Part shown: piece after piece, positions 1-6,344 of the stretch | How the letters are laid out: each line of letters begins with the position of its first letter | Numbering within the stretch: the stretch's first letter is position 1 | DNA from: Escherichia coli | Lineage (GTDB): Bacteria; Pseudomonadota; Gammaproteobacteria; Enterobacterales; Enterobacteriaceae | Length of the DNA stretch: 64,000 nucleotides | Direction: 5' to 3' (one strand) | NCBI RefSeq assembly: GCF_003334305.1 | Contig: NZ_QOWS01000002.1 | Notes under the pieces: model-generated | What the model was told of the DNA's origin: nothing | The model's input: only the letters and a program-made list of their open reading frames with translations | Databases searched by the model: none | Program-made: the position numbers and the translations under genes

Positions 1-64
1 GTGGCGGCCTCAGTCCGGAACAATTTGAAAACAAGAACCTCGCTTAGGCCTGTGTCCATATTAC

Positions 65-1244
65 GTGGGTAGGATCAATAAGAGTGGTTTGTTTTCAATG
101 GACAGAGTCATTCTTGATGACGTTCTATATTCATTGAGCCTACGATACAGAGTGAATCTATCAGAAAACGTAGTTGAAAAATTTATTGAAAGCGATAGCA
201 AAGAGAAGGTTGAACATCTCAGGAAGGAAATTGCTAGGTTTATCAGGTTTGCTAAAGAAAACTTTGATCTTATCCGTGGAGAGTTTATCGTTTTTGTACG
301 AAGAGAATCCTCTATTAAAGATTCGGAGAGAGCTAATGGAATTTTAGAAGATAACTCTGATACTAATTTCCTATTTCGATATCTCCCCCCTAATATTGCC
401 CGTCTGTATGAAAATAGACTATCCGTACAGAATATAGAACGTCTGGGCAATACAAATAAAATTCGGTTGTTAAACAGAAATGTTTTAACGAATGAAATTA
501 TGTTGAAAATTAAAGACTGCGAAAGCACGTATACAAATGGATATATGTATCAATATATAAATAATGCCATTGATAATGATGATGGCACCATATCTATGGA
601 AATTGTCATGGGAAAGCATAGCGGAAAAAAGTTATGAACGGTGGGTGCAGGGAGCAAAAAATCGTACAGTTCTCTTTCATTATAAAAACATTATTACTGA
701 TCTTAACCAAGCGCATTCATGCAGAGCGTCCCTGGGCGCATATTGCCCATTTCATGGAGAAATTCTTCGTAAACTGGATCAAAGGAATGAAGTTCAGAGG
801 GTTAAACTCTCTATTGACGTTCCATTTCTAGAGGGGCTTACTCCAAGTGAACTCTACAAAATTAGAACTGACTACGAATCGAGTTTTAATGCCTTCCGCT
901 CTGTGCTACGTGAAGCTGCGTATGACATAGAAGCAGAAAGTGACCCATATAAGAGGTAGCTGATAAATCAGCATTTTGTCGAGCGCATATGGGATGAAGG
1001 ATTGACCGATATTGAGCAAAAAATACAGACCTATAAGCGGAAAAGTAATAAAGAACTTTTTCTTAACATTGCGCCATCATTGATAGGTTTTATTGGGGCA
1101 CCAAATCCAGTGTCGTTGGCTACAGGAGCCTTTACGATTCTAAAAGAGGTTTTTAATATAACAAGCCACTCTTCAGAAATAAAGAGTCACCCTTCATATT
1201 TCCTTCTCATGACGTCAAAAGGCAAAAATAAATTTTATGACTGA
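65..1244 (+). pseudogene. Low-GC decayed coding region of unknown function: three collinear ORF segments (65-637; 564-959; 1002-1244)
   Basis: Segments 1 and 2 overlap by 74 nt in different frames near A-runs at ~620-660. Segments 2 and 3 share a frame and are separated only by one TAG at 957-959. Track starts at 65 and 1002 are GTG/TTG. Visibly AT-rich compared with flanking DNA. No recognisable motif. Confidence 0.3.
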
Positions 1245-1330
1245 AGCAGTAGAAAATATTGTGAAAATATATTCACTTAAGCAAAAAGGTTGAGGGGCTG
1301 CCGGATCTGTTATTAACGGGGAGCTAATTA

Positions 1331-1358
1331 CTTTGCCGAGTAAAGCAACTCGGCAAAG
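1331..1358. terminator. Perfect 11-bp stem / 6-nt loop hairpin between convergent genes
   Basis: CTTTGCCGAGT-AAAGCA-ACTCGGCAAAG. No clear U-tract on either strand. Confidence 0.3.
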
Positions 1359-1380
1359 TAGCATAGACTTGAGTGAATTA

Positions 1381-1899
1381 TTAGATTTTAACTAGTTCGC
1401 TAGTCTCTACTGAAGCTCTCAAATTAATGGCAGGCTCCTGTGAGCCAACTCGGTATGTGTAAGACTGAGGGTGATCTCTGGCAATGTCAATGAGATCGAT
1501 TAGAGCCTCAGTTGCTCTCAGAGCTTCATTTGGAAGTTCTCGAGGCTCGAAGCTACTGAGTGTGCCGGGCTTCATATGTGCAATCTGCTCATGCCTAATC
1601 TTTAATACTGGTTCTGCGAGTGCAAGGAACTTTTCAGCTGCCAATTTCACAGCCTCTGGTGAAGCAGAATACGAGCCGCGTTTCAAAAACATTGATACAG
1701 ATCTCACATCTTTCCTTTTATCCGCAAGACGCGCTAAACGGATCACCAACATTTCCAACAATGCATTGAGGGCTACCAACTGATTGGCAAGCTCATATCT
1801 TGTACTGCTATTAGTAAGGCCTTCCATCAACCGCTGATACGTATAGATGGTTGTTAGGATATGCCATGCTTCTGCTTCCATTTCTTCAAGAATCGTCAT
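1381..1899 (-). CDS. Hypothetical 172-aa protein; possible HEPN-like R-x5-H motif (KIRHEQIAH)
   Basis: Clean ORF, convergent with the upstream decayed ORFs. AT-rich promoter-like region 1900-2217 is shared divergently with the GTPase gene. Family assignment is inference only. Confidence 0.5.
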   Translation of the reverse strand: MTILEEMEAEAWHILTTIYTYQRLMEGLTNSSTRYELANQLVALNALLEMLVIRLARLADKRKDVRSVSMFLKRGSYSASPEAVKLAAEKFLALAEPVLKIRHEQIAHMKPGTLSSFEPRELPNEALRATEALIDLIDIARDHPQSYTYRVGSQEPAINLRASVETSELVKI

Positions 1900-2253
1900 A
1901 AATACTCCACAATGGTCTGATAGTTATCATGCAGATATCTAAATAACCAATTTAAACTAATTTTATAATTCAACACGTAGCACATGATACTGAATCACTA
2001 CGTATAAATTAGATACTTTAGGATTTTATTTGGACAAGCCCGCCCCGGAAGACAATTCTACCTTAGTGTATATAAGGACCGCTTATGGCACAGAGCGGAC
2101 TGTCAGATGAGGTTTAGTTCTGTACTAATGAGCCGATACAAATTAGCTGCATATACCTGCATTCCAAATAATTTTAGGCAGATATTATCTCCGTGAGTCC
2201 CCTGCCACCTTTCCGGTGTGCGGGGTTTTGTCTTTTTCACCGGGAATACATGT

Positions 2254-3126
2254 ATGAATCCGTCTGATGCCATTGAGGCAATTGAAAAACCGCTCTCCTC
2301 CCTGCCTTACTCGCTTTCCCGTCACATCCTGGAACATCTGCGCAAACTCACCAGTCACGAACCCGTGATTGGCATTATGGGTAAAAGCGGGGCCGGTAAA
2401 TCCTCACTCTGTAATGCACTGTTTCAGGGGGAGGTCACCCCGGTCAGTGATGTTCACGCCGGCACCCGAGAAGTACGGCGCTTCCGTCTGAGTGGCCATG
2501 GTCACAGCATGGTTATCACTGACCTGCCCGGGGTGGGCGAGAGCCGGGACAGGGATGCAGAGTATGAAGCCCTGTACCGTGACATTCTGCCTGAACTTGA
2601 CCTGGTACTGTGGCTGATTAAAGCCGATGACCGTGCCCTGTCTGTGGATGAGTATTTCTGGCGACACATCCTGCACCGGGGACATCAGCAGGTGCTGTTT
2701 GTGGTGACGCAGGCCGACAAAACGGAGCCCTGCCATGAATGGGATATGGCCGGCATTCAGCCTTCTCCCGCACAGGCACAGAACATTCGGGAGAAAACGG
2801 AGGCGGTATTCCGTCTGTTCCGGCCCGTACGTCCGGTTGTTGCCGTATCGGCCCGCACCGGCTGGGAACTGGATACGCTGGTCAGTGCGCTAATGACAGC
2901 ACTTCCCGACCATGCCGCCAGTCCCCTGATGACCCGCCTGCAGGACGAGCTGCGCACGGAATCTGTCCGCGCTCAGGCCCGTGAACAGTTTACCGGTGCG
3001 GTGGATCGGATATTTGACACGGCGGAGAGCGTCTGTGTTGCCTCTGTTGCCCGTACGGTTCTGCGTGCCGTCCGTGACACGGTGGTCTCTGTTGCCCGCG
3101 CTGTATGGAACTGGATTTTCTTCTGA
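2254..3126 (+). CDS. yeeP: YeeP/YkfA-family P-loop GTPase
   Basis: Walker A GKSGAGKSS near the N-terminus; recognised as the GTPase that precedes flu in CP4-44-like islands. Start moved to ATG 2254 (MNPSDAIEAIEK); track ORF begins at GTG 2218. Confidence 0.8.
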   Translation: MNPSDAIEAIEKPLSSLPYSLSRHILEHLRKLTSHEPVIGIMGKSGAGKSSLCNALFQGEVTPVSDVHAGTREVRRFRLSGHGHSMVITDLPGVGESRDRDAEYEALYRDILPELDLVLWLIKADDRALSVDEYFWRHILHRGHQQVLFVVTQADKTEPCHEWDMAGIQPSPAQAQNIREKTEAVFRLFRPVRPVVAVSARTGWELDTLVSALMTALPDHAASPLMTRLQDELRTESVRAQAREQFTGAVDRIFDTAESVCVASVARTVLRAVRDTVVSVARAVWNWIFF

Positions 3127-3244
3127 ACAGTCTGCCAGGGAAATGCCTGATAACATTACGTTAACCAACTGAAAACATGACACAAACCCCTCATACTCCT
3201 CCTGTTTCTCTTGCGTGACCGCCTTGTCGTTAATAGAATAAAAC

Positions 3245-3280
3245 GATCGATAAAACAGGTATCGATCGTTACTATCGATC
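3245..3280 (+). promoter_or_regulatory. Three clustered GATC sites upstream of flu: candidate Dam/OxyR phase-variation switch of agn43
   Basis: GATC at 3245, 3264 and 3277, ~220-250 bp upstream of the flu start codon, matching the known agn43 arrangement. Confidence 0.6.
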
Positions 3281-3497
3281 ATTTATAGTGGTTAATGGTC
3301 TGCGAAAAGGCAGCTGAATCTCTTCATCATGCAGAACGGAATTGCACACAACGGACTGATACTTCTCTGGCGGATGAGAGAGGGGAAGCATTTATGTCCG
3401 GGAAAAACCACTTTATCTGACCATGCTGTTTTGTACCTGCCGGTATCCACTTTTGTGGGTACCGGCTTTTTTATTCACCCTCTGTAAGGAAAAGCTG

Positions 3498-6344
3498 ATG
3501 AAACGACATCTGAACACCAGCTACAGGCTGGTATGGAATCACATTACGGGCACCCTGGTGGTGGCTTCCGAACTGGCCCGCTCACGGGGAAAACGCGCCG
3601 GTGTGGCGGTTGTGCTGTCTCTTGCTGCTGTCACATCAGTCCCGGCACTGGCTGCTGACACGGTTGTACAGGCGGGAGAAACCGTGAACGGCGGAACACT
3701 GACAAATCATGACAACCAGATTGTTCTCGGTACGGCCAACGGAATGACCATCAGTACCGGTCTGGAGTATGGGCCGGATAACGAGGCCAATACCGGCGGG
3801 CAATGGATACAAAATGGCGGTATCGCCAACAACACTACTGTCACCGGTGGTGGTCTTCAGAGAGTGAATGCCGGAGGAAGCGTTTCAGACACGGTTATCA
3901 GTGCCGGAGGCGGACAGAGCCTTCAGGGGCAGGCAGTGAATACCACTCTGAACGGCGGTGAGCAGTGGGTACATGAAGGCGGGATTGCAACGGGTACCGT
4001 CATTAATGAGAAGGGCTGGCAGGCCGTCAAATCCGGCGCAATGGCAACCGACACGGTTGTGAATACCGGCGCGGAAGGGGGACCGGATGCAGAAAATGGT
4101 GATACCGGGCAGTTTGTTCGCGGAAATGCCGTACGTACCACTATCAATGAAAATGGTCGTCAGATTGTGGCTGCTGAAGGAACGGCAAATACCACTGTGG
4201 TTTATGCCGGCGGCGACCAGACTGTACATGGTCACGCACTGGATACCACGCTGAATGGGGGGTACCAGTATGTGCACAACGGCGGTACGGCGTCTGGCAC
4301 TGTTGTAAACAGTGACGGCTGGCAGATTATCAAGGAAGGTGGTCTGGCGGATTTCACCACCGTTAACCAGAAAGGCAAACTGCAGGTGAACGCCGGTGGT
4401 ACCGCCACACATGTCACCCTGAAACAGGGTGGAGCACTGGTTACCAGTACTGCAGCAACGGTTCTTGGCAGCAACCGTCTGGGCAATTTCGCGGTGGAAA
4501 ACGGTAAGGCTGACGGCGTTGTTCTGGAGTCCGGTGGTCGCCTGGATGTACTGGAGGGCCATTCAGCCTGGAAAACACTGGTGGATGACGGCGGTACCCT
4601 GGCAGTGTCTGCCGGTGGTAAGGCAACAGATGTCACCATGACATCCGGTGGTGCCCTGATTGCAGACAGTGGTGCCACTGTTGAGGGGACCAATGCCAGC
4701 GGTAAGTTCAGTATTGATGGCACATCCGGTCAGGCCAGCGGACTGCTGCTGGAAAATGGCGGCAGCTTTACGGTTAATGCCGGGGGACAGGCCAGCAACA
4801 CCACTGTCGGACATCGTGGAACACTGATGCTGGCTGCCGGGGGAAGTCTGAGTGGCAGAACACAGCTCAGTAAAGGCGCCAGCATGGTACTGAATGGTGA
4901 TGTGGTCAGTACCGGCGATATTGTTAACGCAGGGGAGATTTACTTTGACAATCAGACAACACCGGATGCCGTACTGAGCCGTGCTGTTGCAAAAGGCAAC
5001 GCCCCGGTAACGTTCCATAAACTGACAACCAGTAACCTCACCGGTCAGGGTGGCACCATCAATATGCGTGTTAGCCTTGATGGCAGTAATGCCTCTGACC
5101 AGCTGGTGATTAATGGTGGTCAGGCAACCGGCAAAACCTGGCTTGCGTTTACAAATGTCGGAAACAGTAACCTCGGGGTGGCAACCTCCGGACAGGGTAT
5201 CCGGGTTGTGGATGCACAGAATGGTGCCACCACAGAAGAAGGTGCATTTGCCCTGAGTCGCCCGCTTCAGGCCGGCGCCTTTAACTACACCCTGAACCGT
5301 GACAGCGATGAAGACTGGTACCTGCGCAGTGAAAATGCTTATCGTGCTGAAGTCCCCCTGTATGCCTCCATGCTGACACAGGCAATGGACTATGACCGGA
5401 TTCTGGCAGGCTCCCGCAGCCATCAGACCAGTGTAAGCGGTGAAAATAACAGCGTCCGTCTCAGCATTCAGGGCGGTCATCTCGGTCACGATAACAACGG
5501 CGGTATTGCCCGTGGAGCCACGCCGGAAAGCAGCGGCAGCTATGGCTTCGTCCGTCTGGAGGGTGACCTGCTCAGAACAGAGGTTGCCGGTATGTCTCTG
5601 ACGACAGGGGTGTATGGTGCTGCAGGCCATTCTTCCGTTGATGTTAAGGATGATGACGGTTCCCGCGCCGGCACGGTCCGGGATGATGCCGGCAGCCTGG
5701 GCGGATACCTGAATCTGACACACACGTCCTCCGGCCTGTGGGCTGACATTGTGGCACAGGGAACCCGCCACAGCATGAAAGCGTCATCGGACAATAACGA
5801 CTTCCGCGCCCGGGGCTGGGGCTGGCTGGGCTCACTGGAAACCGGTCTGCCCTTCAGTATCACTGACAACCTGATGCTGGAGCCACAACTGCAGTATACC
5901 TGGCAGGGACTTTCCCTGGATGACGGCCAGGATAACGCCGGTTATGTGAAGTTCGGGCATGGCAGTGCACAACATGTGCGTGCCGGTTTCCGTCTGGGCA
6001 GCCACCACGATATGACCTTTGGTGAAGGCACCTCATCCCGTGACACCCTGCGCGACAGTACAAAACACGGTGTGAGTGAACTGCCTGTGAACTGGTGGGT
6101 ACAGCCTTCTGTTATCCGCACCTTCAGCTCCCGGGGAGACATGAGCATGGGTACAGCCGCAGCCGGCAGTAACATGACGTTCTCACCGTCCCAGAATGGC
6201 ACGTCACTGGACCTGCAGGCCGGACTGGAAGCCCGTGTCCGGGAAAATATCACCCTGGGCGTTCAGGCCGGTTATGCCAACAGTGTCAGCGGCAACAGCG
6301 CTGAAGGCTATAACGGTCAGGCCACGCTGAATGTGACCTTCTGA
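3498..6344 (+). CDS. flu: Antigen 43 self-associating autotransporter adhesin
   Basis: N-terminus MKRHLNTSYRLVWNHITG with extended signal peptide, repetitive G/T/N-rich passenger, conserved C-terminal beta-barrel ending in F. Start placed at ATG 3498; 948 aa. Confidence 0.9.
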   Translation: MKRHLNTSYRLVWNHITGTLVVASELARSRGKRAGVAVVLSLAAVTSVPALAADTVVQAGETVNGGTLTNHDNQIVLGTANGMTISTGLEYGPDNEANTGGQWIQNGGIANNTTVTGGGLQRVNAGGSVSDTVISAGGGQSLQGQAVNTTLNGGEQWVHEGGIATGTVINEKGWQAVKSGAMATDTVVNTGAEGGPDAENGDTGQFVRGNAVRTTINENGRQIVAAEGTANTTVVYAGGDQTVHGHALDTTLNGGYQYVHNGGTASGTVVNSDGWQIIKEGGLADFTTVNQKGKLQVNAGGTATHVTLKQGGALVTSTAATVLGSNRLGNFAVENGKADGVVLESGGRLDVLEGHSAWKTLVDDGGTLAVSAGGKATDVTMTSGGALIADSGATVEGTNASGKFSIDGTSGQASGLLLENGGSFTVNAGGQASNTTVGHRGTLMLAAGGSLSGRTQLSKGASMVLNGDVVSTGDIVNAGEIYFDNQTTPDAVLSRAVAKGNAPVTFHKLTTSNLTGQGGTINMRVSLDGSNASDQLVINGGQATGKTWLAFTNVGNSNLGVATSGQGIRVVDAQNGATTEEGAFALSRPLQAGAFNYTLNRDSDEDWYLRSENAYRAEVPLYASMLTQAMDYDRILAGSRSHQTSVSGENNSVRLSIQGGHLGHDNNGGIARGATPESSGSYGFVRLEGDLLRTEVAGMSLTTGVYGAAGHSSVDVKDDDGSRAGTVRDDAGSLGGYLNLTHTSSGLWADIVAQGTRHSMKASSDNNDFRARGWGWLGSLETGLPFSITDNLMLEPQLQYTWQGLSLDDGQDNAGYVKFGHGSAQHVRAGFRLGSHHDMTFGEGTSSRDTLRDSTKHGVSELPVNWWVQPSVIRTFSSRGDMSMGTAAAGSNMTFSPSQNGTSLDLQAGLEARVRENITLGVQAGYANSVSGNSAEGYNGQATLNVTF

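What the first reader, a model, noticed from the sequence alone, without database searches (positions are those of the whole stretch)
1..2217. Low-GC accessory module of unknown function at the left edge
Backbone annotation does not explain this stretch. It is clearly more AT-rich than the adjacent yeeP-flu module and the chromosome. It holds a broken plus-strand coding region (65-1244), a convergent intact 172-aa gene (1381-1899) and a 320-bp AT-rich divergent promoter region shared with the GTPase gene. None of the translations match a family I recognise. Small, compositionally foreign cargo next to antirestriction and toxin-antitoxin genes is where phage-defence or abortive-infection genes are often found. 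The module may continue upstream of position 1.
Basis: partly seen in the sequence, partly recalled or inferred. Interest (0 to 1): 0.6.

Follow-up and report, generated by a model that had tools for sequence, protein, structure and literature searches.

The report
Stand-alone HEPN gene beside dead neighbour
The AT-rich stretch is a rare piece of island cargo holding one intact small gene for a HEPN (AbiU2-type) predicted RNase, probably an abortive-infection phage-defence protein, and the wreck of an uncharacterised 459-residue gene cut off by an IS3 element.

Summary
Window 78-2075 has 38% G+C against 51% for the rest. It contains a broken plus-strand gene and an intact convergent 172-aa gene.

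- **Left end:** bases 1-77 are the right end of an IS3 copy, so the module does not continue upstream.
- **Broken gene:** it is a pseudogene of a 459-aa protein that is intact in E. coli 28RC1 and about 30 other genomes. Here it lost its first 211 bases next to IS3, has a 2-bp deletion in an A-run and carries a CAG>TAG nonsense codon.
- **172-aa gene:** Evidence is a Pfam PF18734 match, a pLDDT 90 model whose Foldseek hits are nearly all "HEPN AbiU2-like", and a conserved R102-x5-H108 motif.
- **Contexts of relatives:** they are single-gene integron cassettes in Vibrio and Marinobacter, and one sits in a P2-prophage hotspot. A 2026 preprint links a Vibrio mimicus cassette with this domain to protection against T4 and T7.
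- **459-aa family:** it is widespread (341 representatives), unannotated, and sits in defence-type contexts.
- **Linkage:** the two families co-occur only in this E. coli module (51 of 5,426 genomes).

Verdict: a new member of a known kind, plus debris. Interest is moderate to low.

The parts
1..77 (+). Right end of an IS3 copy: the 3' end of the transposase gene to base 47 and the terminal inverted repeat ending GGATCA at 72-77. It truncates the neighbouring gene.
   Evidence: Sister genomes identical over 1-2217 annotate an 'IS3-like element IS3 family transposase' ending at the equivalent of window 47. Homology to the intact gene of strain 28RC1 starts at window 78.
78..1244 (+). Pseudogene: codons 71-459 of a 459-aa protein of an uncharacterised, widespread ~455-aa family. 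It has three lesions: loss of the first 211 bases next to IS3, a 2-bp deletion in the A-run at 625-630 (A8 to A6), and a CAG>TAG nonsense codon at 957-959.
   Evidence: Alignment to L003:11790-13169 (WP_000282642.1, intact) lists the lesions. The family has 341 representatives at E<=1e-3. There is no Pfam, NCBIfam, PADLOC, PHROGs or PDB match.
1329..1360 (.). Perfect 13-bp inverted repeat with a 6-nt loop between the two convergent genes. It may be a bidirectional terminator hairpin, but there is no T-tract.
   Evidence: the repeat finder I1: arms 1329-1341 and 1348-1360, 100% complementary. The terminator scan did not call it.
1381..1899 (-). Intact 172-aa gene for a stand-alone HEPN AbiU2-like protein (WP_000153723.1), a predicted RNase with the motif R102-HEQIA-H108. 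A GGAG Shine-Dalgarno sequence lies 5 nt before the ATG.
   Evidence: Pfam PF18734 E=7.1e-5, and 18 of 28 family members match at E<=1e-3. The AF2 model has pLDDT 90. 45 of the top 50 Foldseek AFDB50 hits are 'HEPN AbiU2-like'. H108 is invariant and R102 at least 90% conserved. The gene is intact in all 51 E. coli genomes that carry it.
1900..2075 (-). Cargo-specific AT-rich region upstream of the HEPN gene, presumed to hold its promoter. No consensus site was found.
   Evidence: Only the 51 cargo-bearing genomes match this part. There is no sigma-70-like hit, no tandem repeat and no Rfam match.
2079..2217 (+). Island backbone: the conserved upstream region of the yeeP-like GTPase gene. It is not part of the cargo.
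   Evidence: Matches in 4,156 of 5,426 genomes start at query position about 194-200 of window:1880-2300, which is window 2073-2079.

Best explanation
**What it is.** Window 78-2075 is what remains of a rare accessory cargo. It sits in the variable slot upstream of the yeeP-like GTPase gene of a CP4-type integrative island at serX. It once held two independent genes lying tail to tail.

**The left gene is dead.** It encoded a 459-aa protein of an uncharacterised family. An IS3 removed its start, and it also carries a frameshift and a nonsense codon.

**The right gene is intact.** It encodes a 172-aa stand-alone HEPN protein of the AbiU2 family.

**Inferred mechanism for the HEPN protein.** This is by analogy with other HEPN proteins and nothing here shows it.
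- The protein would dimerise so that the R-x5-H motifs of two subunits form a metal-independent RNase site.
- It would stay inactive in healthy cells and be switched on by phage infection.
- It would then cleave host and/or phage RNA (tRNA, rRNA or mRNA), stopping growth before phage progeny are released. That is abortive infection.
- It appears to need no dedicated partner, because its relatives travel as single-gene integron cassettes.

**Shown:** gene integrity, family membership, fold, motif conservation, rarity, the contexts of relatives, and the lesions in the neighbour.

**Inferred:** RNase activity, dimerisation, the trigger and the defence phenotype.
For: **HEPN identity**
- Pfam HEPN_AbiU2 E=7.1e-5 for this protein. 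18 of 28 relatives match at E<=1e-3 and 27 of 28 at E<=0.1.
- The AF2 model has pLDDT 90 and pTM 0.86, with four long helices.
- 45 of the top 50 Foldseek AFDB50 hits are 'HEPN AbiU2-like domain-containing protein'.
- In the motif RHExIAHMK, H108, M109 and K110 are invariant and R102 is at least 90% conserved.

**Stand-alone nature**
- The Vibrio homolog is flanked by VCR-like repeats inside a cassette array. The Marinobacter homologs lie in a similar same-strand array with cassette-boundary repeats.
- HMM searches of all 34 fetched loci find the 459-aa family next to the HEPN gene only in the E. coli module.
- The HEPN gene is full-length at 99.4% identity or more in all 51 E. coli genomes that carry it. 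The neighbour is disrupted in 21 of them, with at least four different 5' truncation points.

**Link to defence**
- The AbiU2 family was defined as a HEPN family from a lactococcal Abi system (PMC3710099).
- In a preprint, a V. mimicus integron cassette with a HEPN AbiU2 domain was present in 94% of phage-surviving clones and is credited with T4/T7 resistance. It could not be cloned alone and was tested only in a clone that also carried a second cassette (bioRxiv 10.64898/2026.03.17.712381).
- A Serratia homolog sits in the P2-prophage gpA-portal hotspot.
- In strain 28RC1 the cargo abuts a type I R-M operon with DarTG embedded.

**Pseudogene lesions:**
Against: - No experiment exists on this protein or a demonstrably close relative. 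I could not obtain the V. mimicus sequence, so its closeness is unknown.
- The V. mimicus cassette was never tested on its own, so its phenotype is attributed to it rather than shown for it.
- PADLOC 2.0 gives no significant hit for the protein.
- No promoter-like site was found upstream, so expression is unproven.
- Divergence among the E. coli copies is too low (99.4% identity or more) to demonstrate purifying selection within the species.
- A toxic RNase without a visible antitoxin is unusual. The V. mimicus cassette could not be cloned alone, which hints that a restraining factor may be required.
- tblastn finds no relatives in the phage or plasmid collections.
Confidence: 0.6

Rival explanations
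1. The 459-aa protein and the HEPN protein were one two-gene system, for example a sensor or antitoxin plus an RNase effector. That system is now broken in this window.
For: In E. coli the HEPN gene is always next to the 459-aa gene or its remnant: 51 of 51 genomes. A distant member of the 459-aa family also lies beside a HEPN/MNT pair.
Against: - The genes are convergent, not operonic.
- Outside the E. coli module, none of the 10 loci fetched via the HEPN gene (6 contexts) has a 459-family gene. None of the 20 loci fetched via the 459-family gene (about 10 contexts) has an AbiU2-like HEPN within 5-7 kb.
- Six E. coli genomes carry the 459-aa gene alone in a lambdoid prophage.
- The HEPN gene stays intact in 21 genomes where the partner is disrupted. 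The partner is therefore not an essential antitoxin, assuming the HEPN gene is expressed.
Confidence: 0.08
2. The HEPN protein is the toxin of an addiction or toxin-antitoxin module that stabilises the island, with an unrecognised protein or RNA antitoxin. It is not a phage-defence gene.
For: Many HEPN proteins are toxins of HEPN-MNT pairs; 7ae2 is a structural neighbour. The island already carries CbtA/CbeA. The V. mimicus cassette could not be cloned alone.
Against: - There is no MNT-like or other small conserved ORF beside the gene, here or in the integron cassettes.
- There are no tandem repeats that could encode a ToxI-like RNA.
- There is no Rfam match.
- Relatives sit in single-gene cassettes and in a P2 hotspot.
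Confidence: 0.12
3. The whole stretch is inert debris. The HEPN gene is silent or non-functional and survives only because the insertion is recent.
For: The neighbour is decayed, IS3 sits at the edge and no promoter consensus was found. The near-identity of all E. coli copies gives no evidence of selection.
Against: - The ORF is intact in 51 of 51 genomes while the adjacent gene was hit in 21 of them.
- The catalytic-motif residues are preserved.
- A good Shine-Dalgarno sequence is present, read directly from the sequence.
- The family is conserved across Gamma- and Betaproteobacteria.
Confidence: 0.15

Closest known systems
HEPN_AbiU2 family (Pfam PF18734; defined by Anantharaman et al. 2013, PMC3710099, from the lactococcal AbiU abortive-infection locus)
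   Same: Significant profile match, four-helix HEPN fold, conserved R-x5-H motif, and location on mobile elements next to R-M and defence genes.
   Different: This is a short (172-aa) proteobacterial subfamily with a C-terminal extension of short strands. The Sel1-repeat or Bxe_C0808 partner listed for the family in PMC3710099 is absent. The only partner-like neighbour seen is a DUF6602/PD-(D/E)xK protein in Serratia. PADLOC has no matching model.
Vibrio mimicus MB461 integron cassette HNPBCG_15845 (bioRxiv 10.64898/2026.03.17.712381)
   Same: A small protein with a HEPN AbiU2 domain, carried as a single-gene cassette. Homologs of the window protein are also Vibrio integron cassettes.
   Different: The cassette was tested only in a clone that also carried a second cassette. 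The window copy is island cargo, not a cassette.
HEPN-MNT (HepT/MntA) toxin-antitoxin systems, e.g. PDB 7ae2
   Different: There is no adjacent MNT nucleotidyltransferase gene. Sequence identity is only 9%, and there is no sequence-level PDB hit.
Integron cassette HEPN Vpc_cass2 (PDB 3jrt)
   Different: A different HEPN family, with 7% identity.
For the 459-aa pseudogene: no described family. The only weak hint is Pfam DUF6236.
   Same: 7 of 65 family members give weak DUF6236 matches, best E 2e-3.
   Different: None reaches E<=0.001. DUF6236 itself has no known function and no paper in the library mentions it.

Membership tests
HEPN superfamily, AbiU2 family (PF18734) | Significant match to the family profile | tested here: met
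   E=7.1e-5, residues 8-110. 18 of 28 relatives match at E<=1e-3 and 27 of 28 at E<=0.1.
HEPN superfamily, AbiU2 family (PF18734) | All-alpha four-helix up-down bundle | tested here: met
   The AF2 model has pLDDT 90 with helices 3-26, 34-59, 81-106 and 124-141. 45 of the top 50 Foldseek hits are AbiU2-like proteins, TM up to 0.80 for relatives at 21-25% identity.
HEPN superfamily, AbiU2 family (PF18734) | Conserved R-x4-6-H catalytic motif | tested here: met
   R102-HEQIA-H108. H108 is invariant and R102 at least 90% conserved in 28 sequences down to 36% identity.
HEPN superfamily, AbiU2 family (PF18734) | Metal-independent endoribonuclease activity | not testable with these tools
   Needs purified protein and RNA substrates.
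Abortive-infection / anti-phage defence gene | Protects a population from phage, with growth arrest or death of infected cells | not testable with these tools
   Indirect only: the V. mimicus AbiU2-domain cassette and the defence-type contexts.
Known defence systems in PADLOC-DB 2.0 | Match to a system model | tested here: not met
   Best hits have E=0.024 (E2) and E=0.012 (Csm5), which is noise.
HEPN-MNT toxin-antitoxin | Adjacent co-oriented MNT nucleotidyltransferase antitoxin gene | tested here: not met
   The neighbours are the convergent pseudogene and the divergent GTPase gene. No other ORF of 40 aa or more on the gene's own strand lies upstream of it.
Integron gene cassette | ORF bounded by attC recombination sites in an array next to intI | tested here: inconclusive
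   The Vibrio homolog is flanked by VCR-like repeats and the Marinobacter homologs lie in a similar array with boundary repeats. In the window only a 13-bp hairpin follows the gene. I did not run an attC model.
IS3 | Window 1-77 identical to the end of an annotated IS3 element | tested here: met
   100% identity to loci where RefSeq annotates an IS3 family transposase ending at the equivalent of window 47.
Pfam DUF6236 (for the 459-aa family) | Significant profile match | tested here: inconclusive
   0 of 65 members at E<=0.001 and 7 of 65 at E<=0.1.

The most novel reading that the evidence does not exclude
The dead gene at 78-1244 belongs to a widespread family of about 455 aa. It has 341 representatives at 50% identity and occurs in Proteobacteria, Bacteroidota, Firmicutes and Myxobacteria. 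It has no Pfam, NCBIfam, PADLOC, PHROGs or PDB relative. This family could be a new single-gene anti-phage or anti-mobile-element defence protein.

Context evidence:
- In Morganella it occupies the P2-prophage gpA-portal hotspot next to a PD-T4-6-like kinase.
- One member is embedded in a type I R-M operon directly after hsdS.
- It lies in lambdoid prophages of E. coli E24377A and SE11.
- It sits beside integrases and toxin-antitoxin pairs elsewhere.

Its repeated inactivation in E. coli (21 of 51 genomes) would then reflect its cost. Separately, the intact 172-aa HEPN protein would be a functional partner-less abortive-infection RNase.
Probability: 0.35. Interest if true: 0.55.

Novelty: new member of a known kind. 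Interest (0 to 1): 0.33.

Why it matters
If the 172-aa protein is an active defence RNase, it adds a very small, partner-less HEPN system to the E. coli defence repertoire. It moves between integron cassettes, P2 hotspots and CP4-type islands, and PADLOC 2.0 does not detect it (DefenseFinder was not run here). The slot upstream of the yeeP-like GTPase gene would then be worth mining as a cargo hotspot. The neighbouring pseudogene points to a large unannotated protein family with defence-type contexts, and an intact allele exists for testing in O157:H7-related strains. For this window itself the finding is modest: one predicted Abi gene and debris.

Tried and rejected
1. **Structure of the 459-aa protein.** AF2 from a 20-sequence alignment of close relatives gave pLDDT 51, which is unusable. 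Foldseek with this model returned only unannotated family members.
2. **Family libraries for the 459-aa family.** The E. coli protein has no significant match in Pfam, NCBIfam, PADLOC or PHROGs, and family profiles find no PDB sequence; ten distant members gave nothing in NCBIfam, PADLOC or PHROGs, and Pfam on all 65 gave only weak DUF6236 matches.
3. **C-terminal transmembrane anchor in the 459-aa protein.** The maximum Kyte-Doolittle 19-residue mean is 1.31, below the usual 1.6, so this is not supported.
4. **Homology between the Serratia DUF6602 partner and the 459-aa family.** hhalign probability 0.1%, rejected.
5. **Other convergent ORFs as HEPN relatives.** The convergent 170-aa ORF in L022 and the 220-aa ORF in E24377A are unrelated to the HEPN family.
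6. **RNA antitoxin or riboswitch.** There are no tandem repeats. The only Rfam hit in 1-3600 is the known IS102/IsrC RNA at 3243-3479.
7. **Phage and plasmid collections.** tblastn of the HEPN protein against both collections, and of the 459-aa protein against the phage collection, found nothing.
8. **IMG/VR.** One HEPN locus and three 459-family loci were found. The scan with the diverse alignment failed for lack of a conserved block.
9. **Literature.** No paper names the RefSeq proteins or DUF6236. The V. mimicus cassette sequence is not in the preprint's supplements.
Full report
**1. The observation**

The left 2.2 kb of the window is AT-rich.
- Windows of 500 bases have 35-44% G+C over 1-2250. 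The GTPase and Ag43 genes that follow have 55-60%.
- Bases 78-2075 have 38.4% G+C against 51.2% for the rest of the window.
- The only other 2-kb stretch this low is at about 19.5-21.3 kb. It is the curli csgDEFG operon, a normal chromosomal region.

The ORF list shows three plus-strand fragments (65-637, 564-959, 1002-1244) and an intact 172-aa ORF at 1381-1899 on the minus strand.

**2. Boundaries**

A megablast of 1-2217 against 5,426 complete E. coli genomes finds the whole stretch in only 51.
- In genomes identical to the window, RefSeq annotates an IS3 transposase whose CDS ends at the equivalent of window 47. Upstream of that lie IS1F and the fecIRABCDE operon.
- The IS3 terminal repeat ends with GGATCA at window 72-77.
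- The module therefore does not continue upstream of position 1. It is cut by the IS.
- On the right, 4,156 genomes match window:1880-2300, but only from query position about 194-200 onward. That places the backbone boundary at window 2073-2079.
- Bases 2079-2217 are thus the common leader of the yeeP-like GTPase gene. The foreign cargo is 78 to about 2075.

A tRNA-Ser(GGA) gene at 15427-15514, followed by csg, confirms that the island sits at serX.

In other islands the slot just upstream of the GTPase gene holds quite different genes. Examples are LysR/hydrolase/MFS genes, a DUF4365 gene with hypotheticals, and a single 290-aa hypothetical. It is a variable cargo slot.

**3. The broken gene**

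In E. coli 28RC1 and relatives the same DNA carries an intact 1,380-base gene for a 459-aa hypothetical protein, WP_000282642.1. Alignment of the window to that locus shows three lesions:
- Homology starts at window 78, which is base 212 of the gene, so about 70 codons and the start are lost.
- A 2-bp deletion in an A-run (window 625-630) causes a frameshift.
- A C>T change at 957 turns CAG into TAG.

Sister genomes such as Ecol_AZ159 keep 180 more bases of the 5' part, with the same IS3 inserted at about base 27 of the gene. The window lineage therefore has a further IS-adjacent deletion.

Strain LSN03-016011/A has the broken gene without the IS3. At least part of the decay may therefore predate the IS3 insertion, although I did not align that copy base by base.

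Across the 51 genomes:
- 30 have a full-length, indel-free copy.
- 21 are disrupted. Four different 5' truncation points are seen (bases 26, 46, 164 and 212), and two further genomes have indel-only lesions.

**4. What the 459-aa protein is**

It has no significant match in Pfam, NCBIfam, PADLOC, PHROGs or PDB sequences.

A word-indexed search finds only Enterobacterales relatives, all annotated as hypothetical. An exhaustive profile search finds 341 cluster representatives at E<=1e-3, mostly 445-465 aa and matching end to end.

A 65-sequence alignment has only Y38, D85 and W260 invariant.
- Its members give no Pfam hit at E<=0.001.
- 7 of 65 give weak DUF6236 matches.
- Ten distant members give nothing in PADLOC, NCBIfam or PHROGs, and the family profile finds no convincing PDB chain (best E 0.005, a designed protein).

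The AF2 model from the shallow alignment is poor (pLDDT 51). Foldseek with it returns only 'Uncharacterized protein' entries, from Enterobacteria, Pseudomonas, Vibrio, Sphingobacterium, Arcobacter, Alicyclobacillus, myxobacteria and others.

Contexts of family members:

| Host or member | Context |
|---|---|
| Morganella | P2-like prophage between gpA and the portal gene, next to a kinase matching PD-T4-6 at 1e-30 |
| Metagenomic member P0133 | Starts 2 bases after hsdS inside a type I R-M operon, followed by a protein with weak PADLOC matches to a TIR effector and DpdB |
| E. coli E24377A, SE11 and four others | 91.5%-identical copy in a lambdoid prophage upstream of Q, next to GIY-YIG and HNH genes |
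| Other members | Beside integrases, a HicB gene and an MNT/HEPN pair |
| Pectobacterium | Alone next to an IS3-family element |

This is the pattern expected of mobile accessory or defence cargo. I cannot propose a mechanism, and in this window the gene is dead.

**5. The intact 172-aa gene**

Sequence and structure evidence:
- Pfam gives HEPN_AbiU2 (PF18734) at E=7.1e-5 over residues 8-110.
- Of 28 relatives down to 36% identity, 18 match at E<=1e-3 and 27 at E<=0.1.
- The alignment shows an invariant H108-M109-K110 and a nearly invariant R102-H103. This gives R-x5-H, the HEPN signature, together with an invariant R54/R57/L58/D60/R66 block.
- AF2 gives a confident model (pLDDT 90, pTM 0.86) with four long helices and a short C-terminal strand region.
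- Foldseek against AFDB50 returns 'HEPN AbiU2-like domain-containing protein' for 45 of the top 50 hits. These include proteins of 16-25% identity with TM 0.7-0.8.
- No PDB chain matches by sequence.
- PADLOC, NCBIfam and PHROGs have no model for it.

Membership of the AbiU2 HEPN family is therefore well supported. Enzymatic activity is not tested.

**6. Is it a two-gene system?**

I think not, for these reasons.
- The genes are convergent and separated by a perfect 13-bp hairpin at 1329-1360.
- The Vibrio vulnificus homolog lies in a same-strand cassette array and is flanked by VCR-like repeats, so it is a single-gene integron cassette. Marinobacter homologs lie in a similar array with cassette-boundary repeats.
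- In Serratia liquefaciens the homolog sits in the P2 gpA-portal hotspot, overlapping a DUF6602/PD-(D/E)xK gene. In Citrobacter its neighbours are unrelated membrane-like ORFs.
- HMMs of both families, searched against six-frame ORFs of all 34 fetched loci, find them together only in the four E. coli copies of this module.
- In E. coli the HEPN gene is full-length and at least 99.4% identical in all 51 carriers, including the 21 where the neighbour is disrupted. The neighbour is therefore not an indispensable antitoxin.
- No MNT-type gene, tandem repeat or Rfam element that could serve as an antitoxin is present.

**7. Likely function**

- The AbiU2 family was recognised as a HEPN family derived from a lactococcal abortive-infection locus. 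Its predicted RNase activity was proposed as the common mechanism of several Abi proteins (PMC3710099).
- A 2026 preprint reports a V. mimicus chromosomal-integron cassette encoding a dimeric protein with a HEPN AbiU2 domain. It was present in 94% of the clones that survived phage challenge and is credited with resistance to T4 and T7. It could not be cloned on its own and was tested only in a clone that also carried a second cassette, so the attribution is the authors' inference (10.64898/2026.03.17.712381).
- A 2024 preprint describes another HEPN-only integron cassette defence, named Esos (10.1101/2024.07.02.601686).
- I could not obtain those sequences, so homology to the window protein is unverified.

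On this basis the best reading is a stand-alone, infection-activated HEPN RNase that acts by abortive infection. The activity, trigger and phenotype are all inferences.

**8. Comparison and novelty**

- The 172-aa protein is a new, short proteobacterial member of a known family, HEPN AbiU2.
- It is not a HEPN-MNT toxin-antitoxin pair, because it has no MNT partner.
- It matches no PADLOC model (PADLOC-DB 2.0, 2023).
- The 459-aa family is undescribed in every library I could search, but this window holds only its remnant.
- Overall this is a rare but ordinary piece of island cargo: a new member of a known kind plus pseudogene debris. It also gives a lead on an unannotated family.

**9. Scores**

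- HEPN AbiU2 identity: about 0.9.
- Defence by abortive infection: about 0.55.
- Interest: 0.33.

Noticed in passing
L017:3700-5549 (Serratia liquefaciens P2-like prophage, between gpA and the portal gene): A 433-aa DUF6602 protein whose N-terminus matches a PD-(D/E)xK nuclease model (PADLOC PD_DExK, E 1e-12) overlaps by one base the start of a 182-aa HEPN AbiU2-like gene. This could be a two-gene nuclease plus RNase defence system in the P2 hotspot.
   Followed up: partly
L004:6001-9033 (Morganella morganii P2-like prophage hotspot): A 459-family gene is followed 67 bases later by a 534-aa Ser/Thr kinase. The kinase matches PADLOC PD-T4-6 (E 3e-30) and mad6 (E 3e-35).
   Followed up: partly
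L021:2767-8932 (metagenomic contig): A 460-aa member of the 459-aa family starts 2 bases after the hsdS gene of a type I R-M operon. It is followed by a 502-aa protein with weak PADLOC matches to a TIR effector (E 5e-10) and DpdB (E 4e-5). This looks like an R-M-embedded accessory gene.
   Followed up: partly
L003:1927-10561 (E. coli 28RC1, left of the intact module): A type I R-M operon has darT-darG inserted between hsdS and hsdR. It lies about 1 kb from the intact 459-aa gene. In the window lineage this flank is replaced by IS3, IS1F and fecIRABCDE.
   Followed up: no
window 3243-3479 (+): Rfam IS102 RNA (RF00124, 64.8 bits, E 1e-9) lies between the GTPase gene and the Ag43 gene. This is the known IsrC-type sRNA position upstream of flu.
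   Followed up: no
window 18713-21058 (-): A second region of 39% G+C is the curli operon. csgG and csgD are confirmed by NCBIfam, and the ORFs between them have the sizes of csgF and csgE. It is ordinary chromosome, and it shows that low G+C alone does not mark foreign DNA here.
   Followed up: yes
window 15427-15514 (-): tRNA-Ser(GGA), consistent with serX, marks the end of the integrative island.
   Followed up: yes
L023:4553-6675 (E. coli E24377A lambdoid prophage): The 91.5%-identical copy of the 459-aa gene lies next to genes annotated as a LEM-3-like GIY-YIG domain protein and an HNH endonuclease, upstream of the Q antiterminator. This looks like a prophage accessory (moron) cluster.
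   Followed up: no
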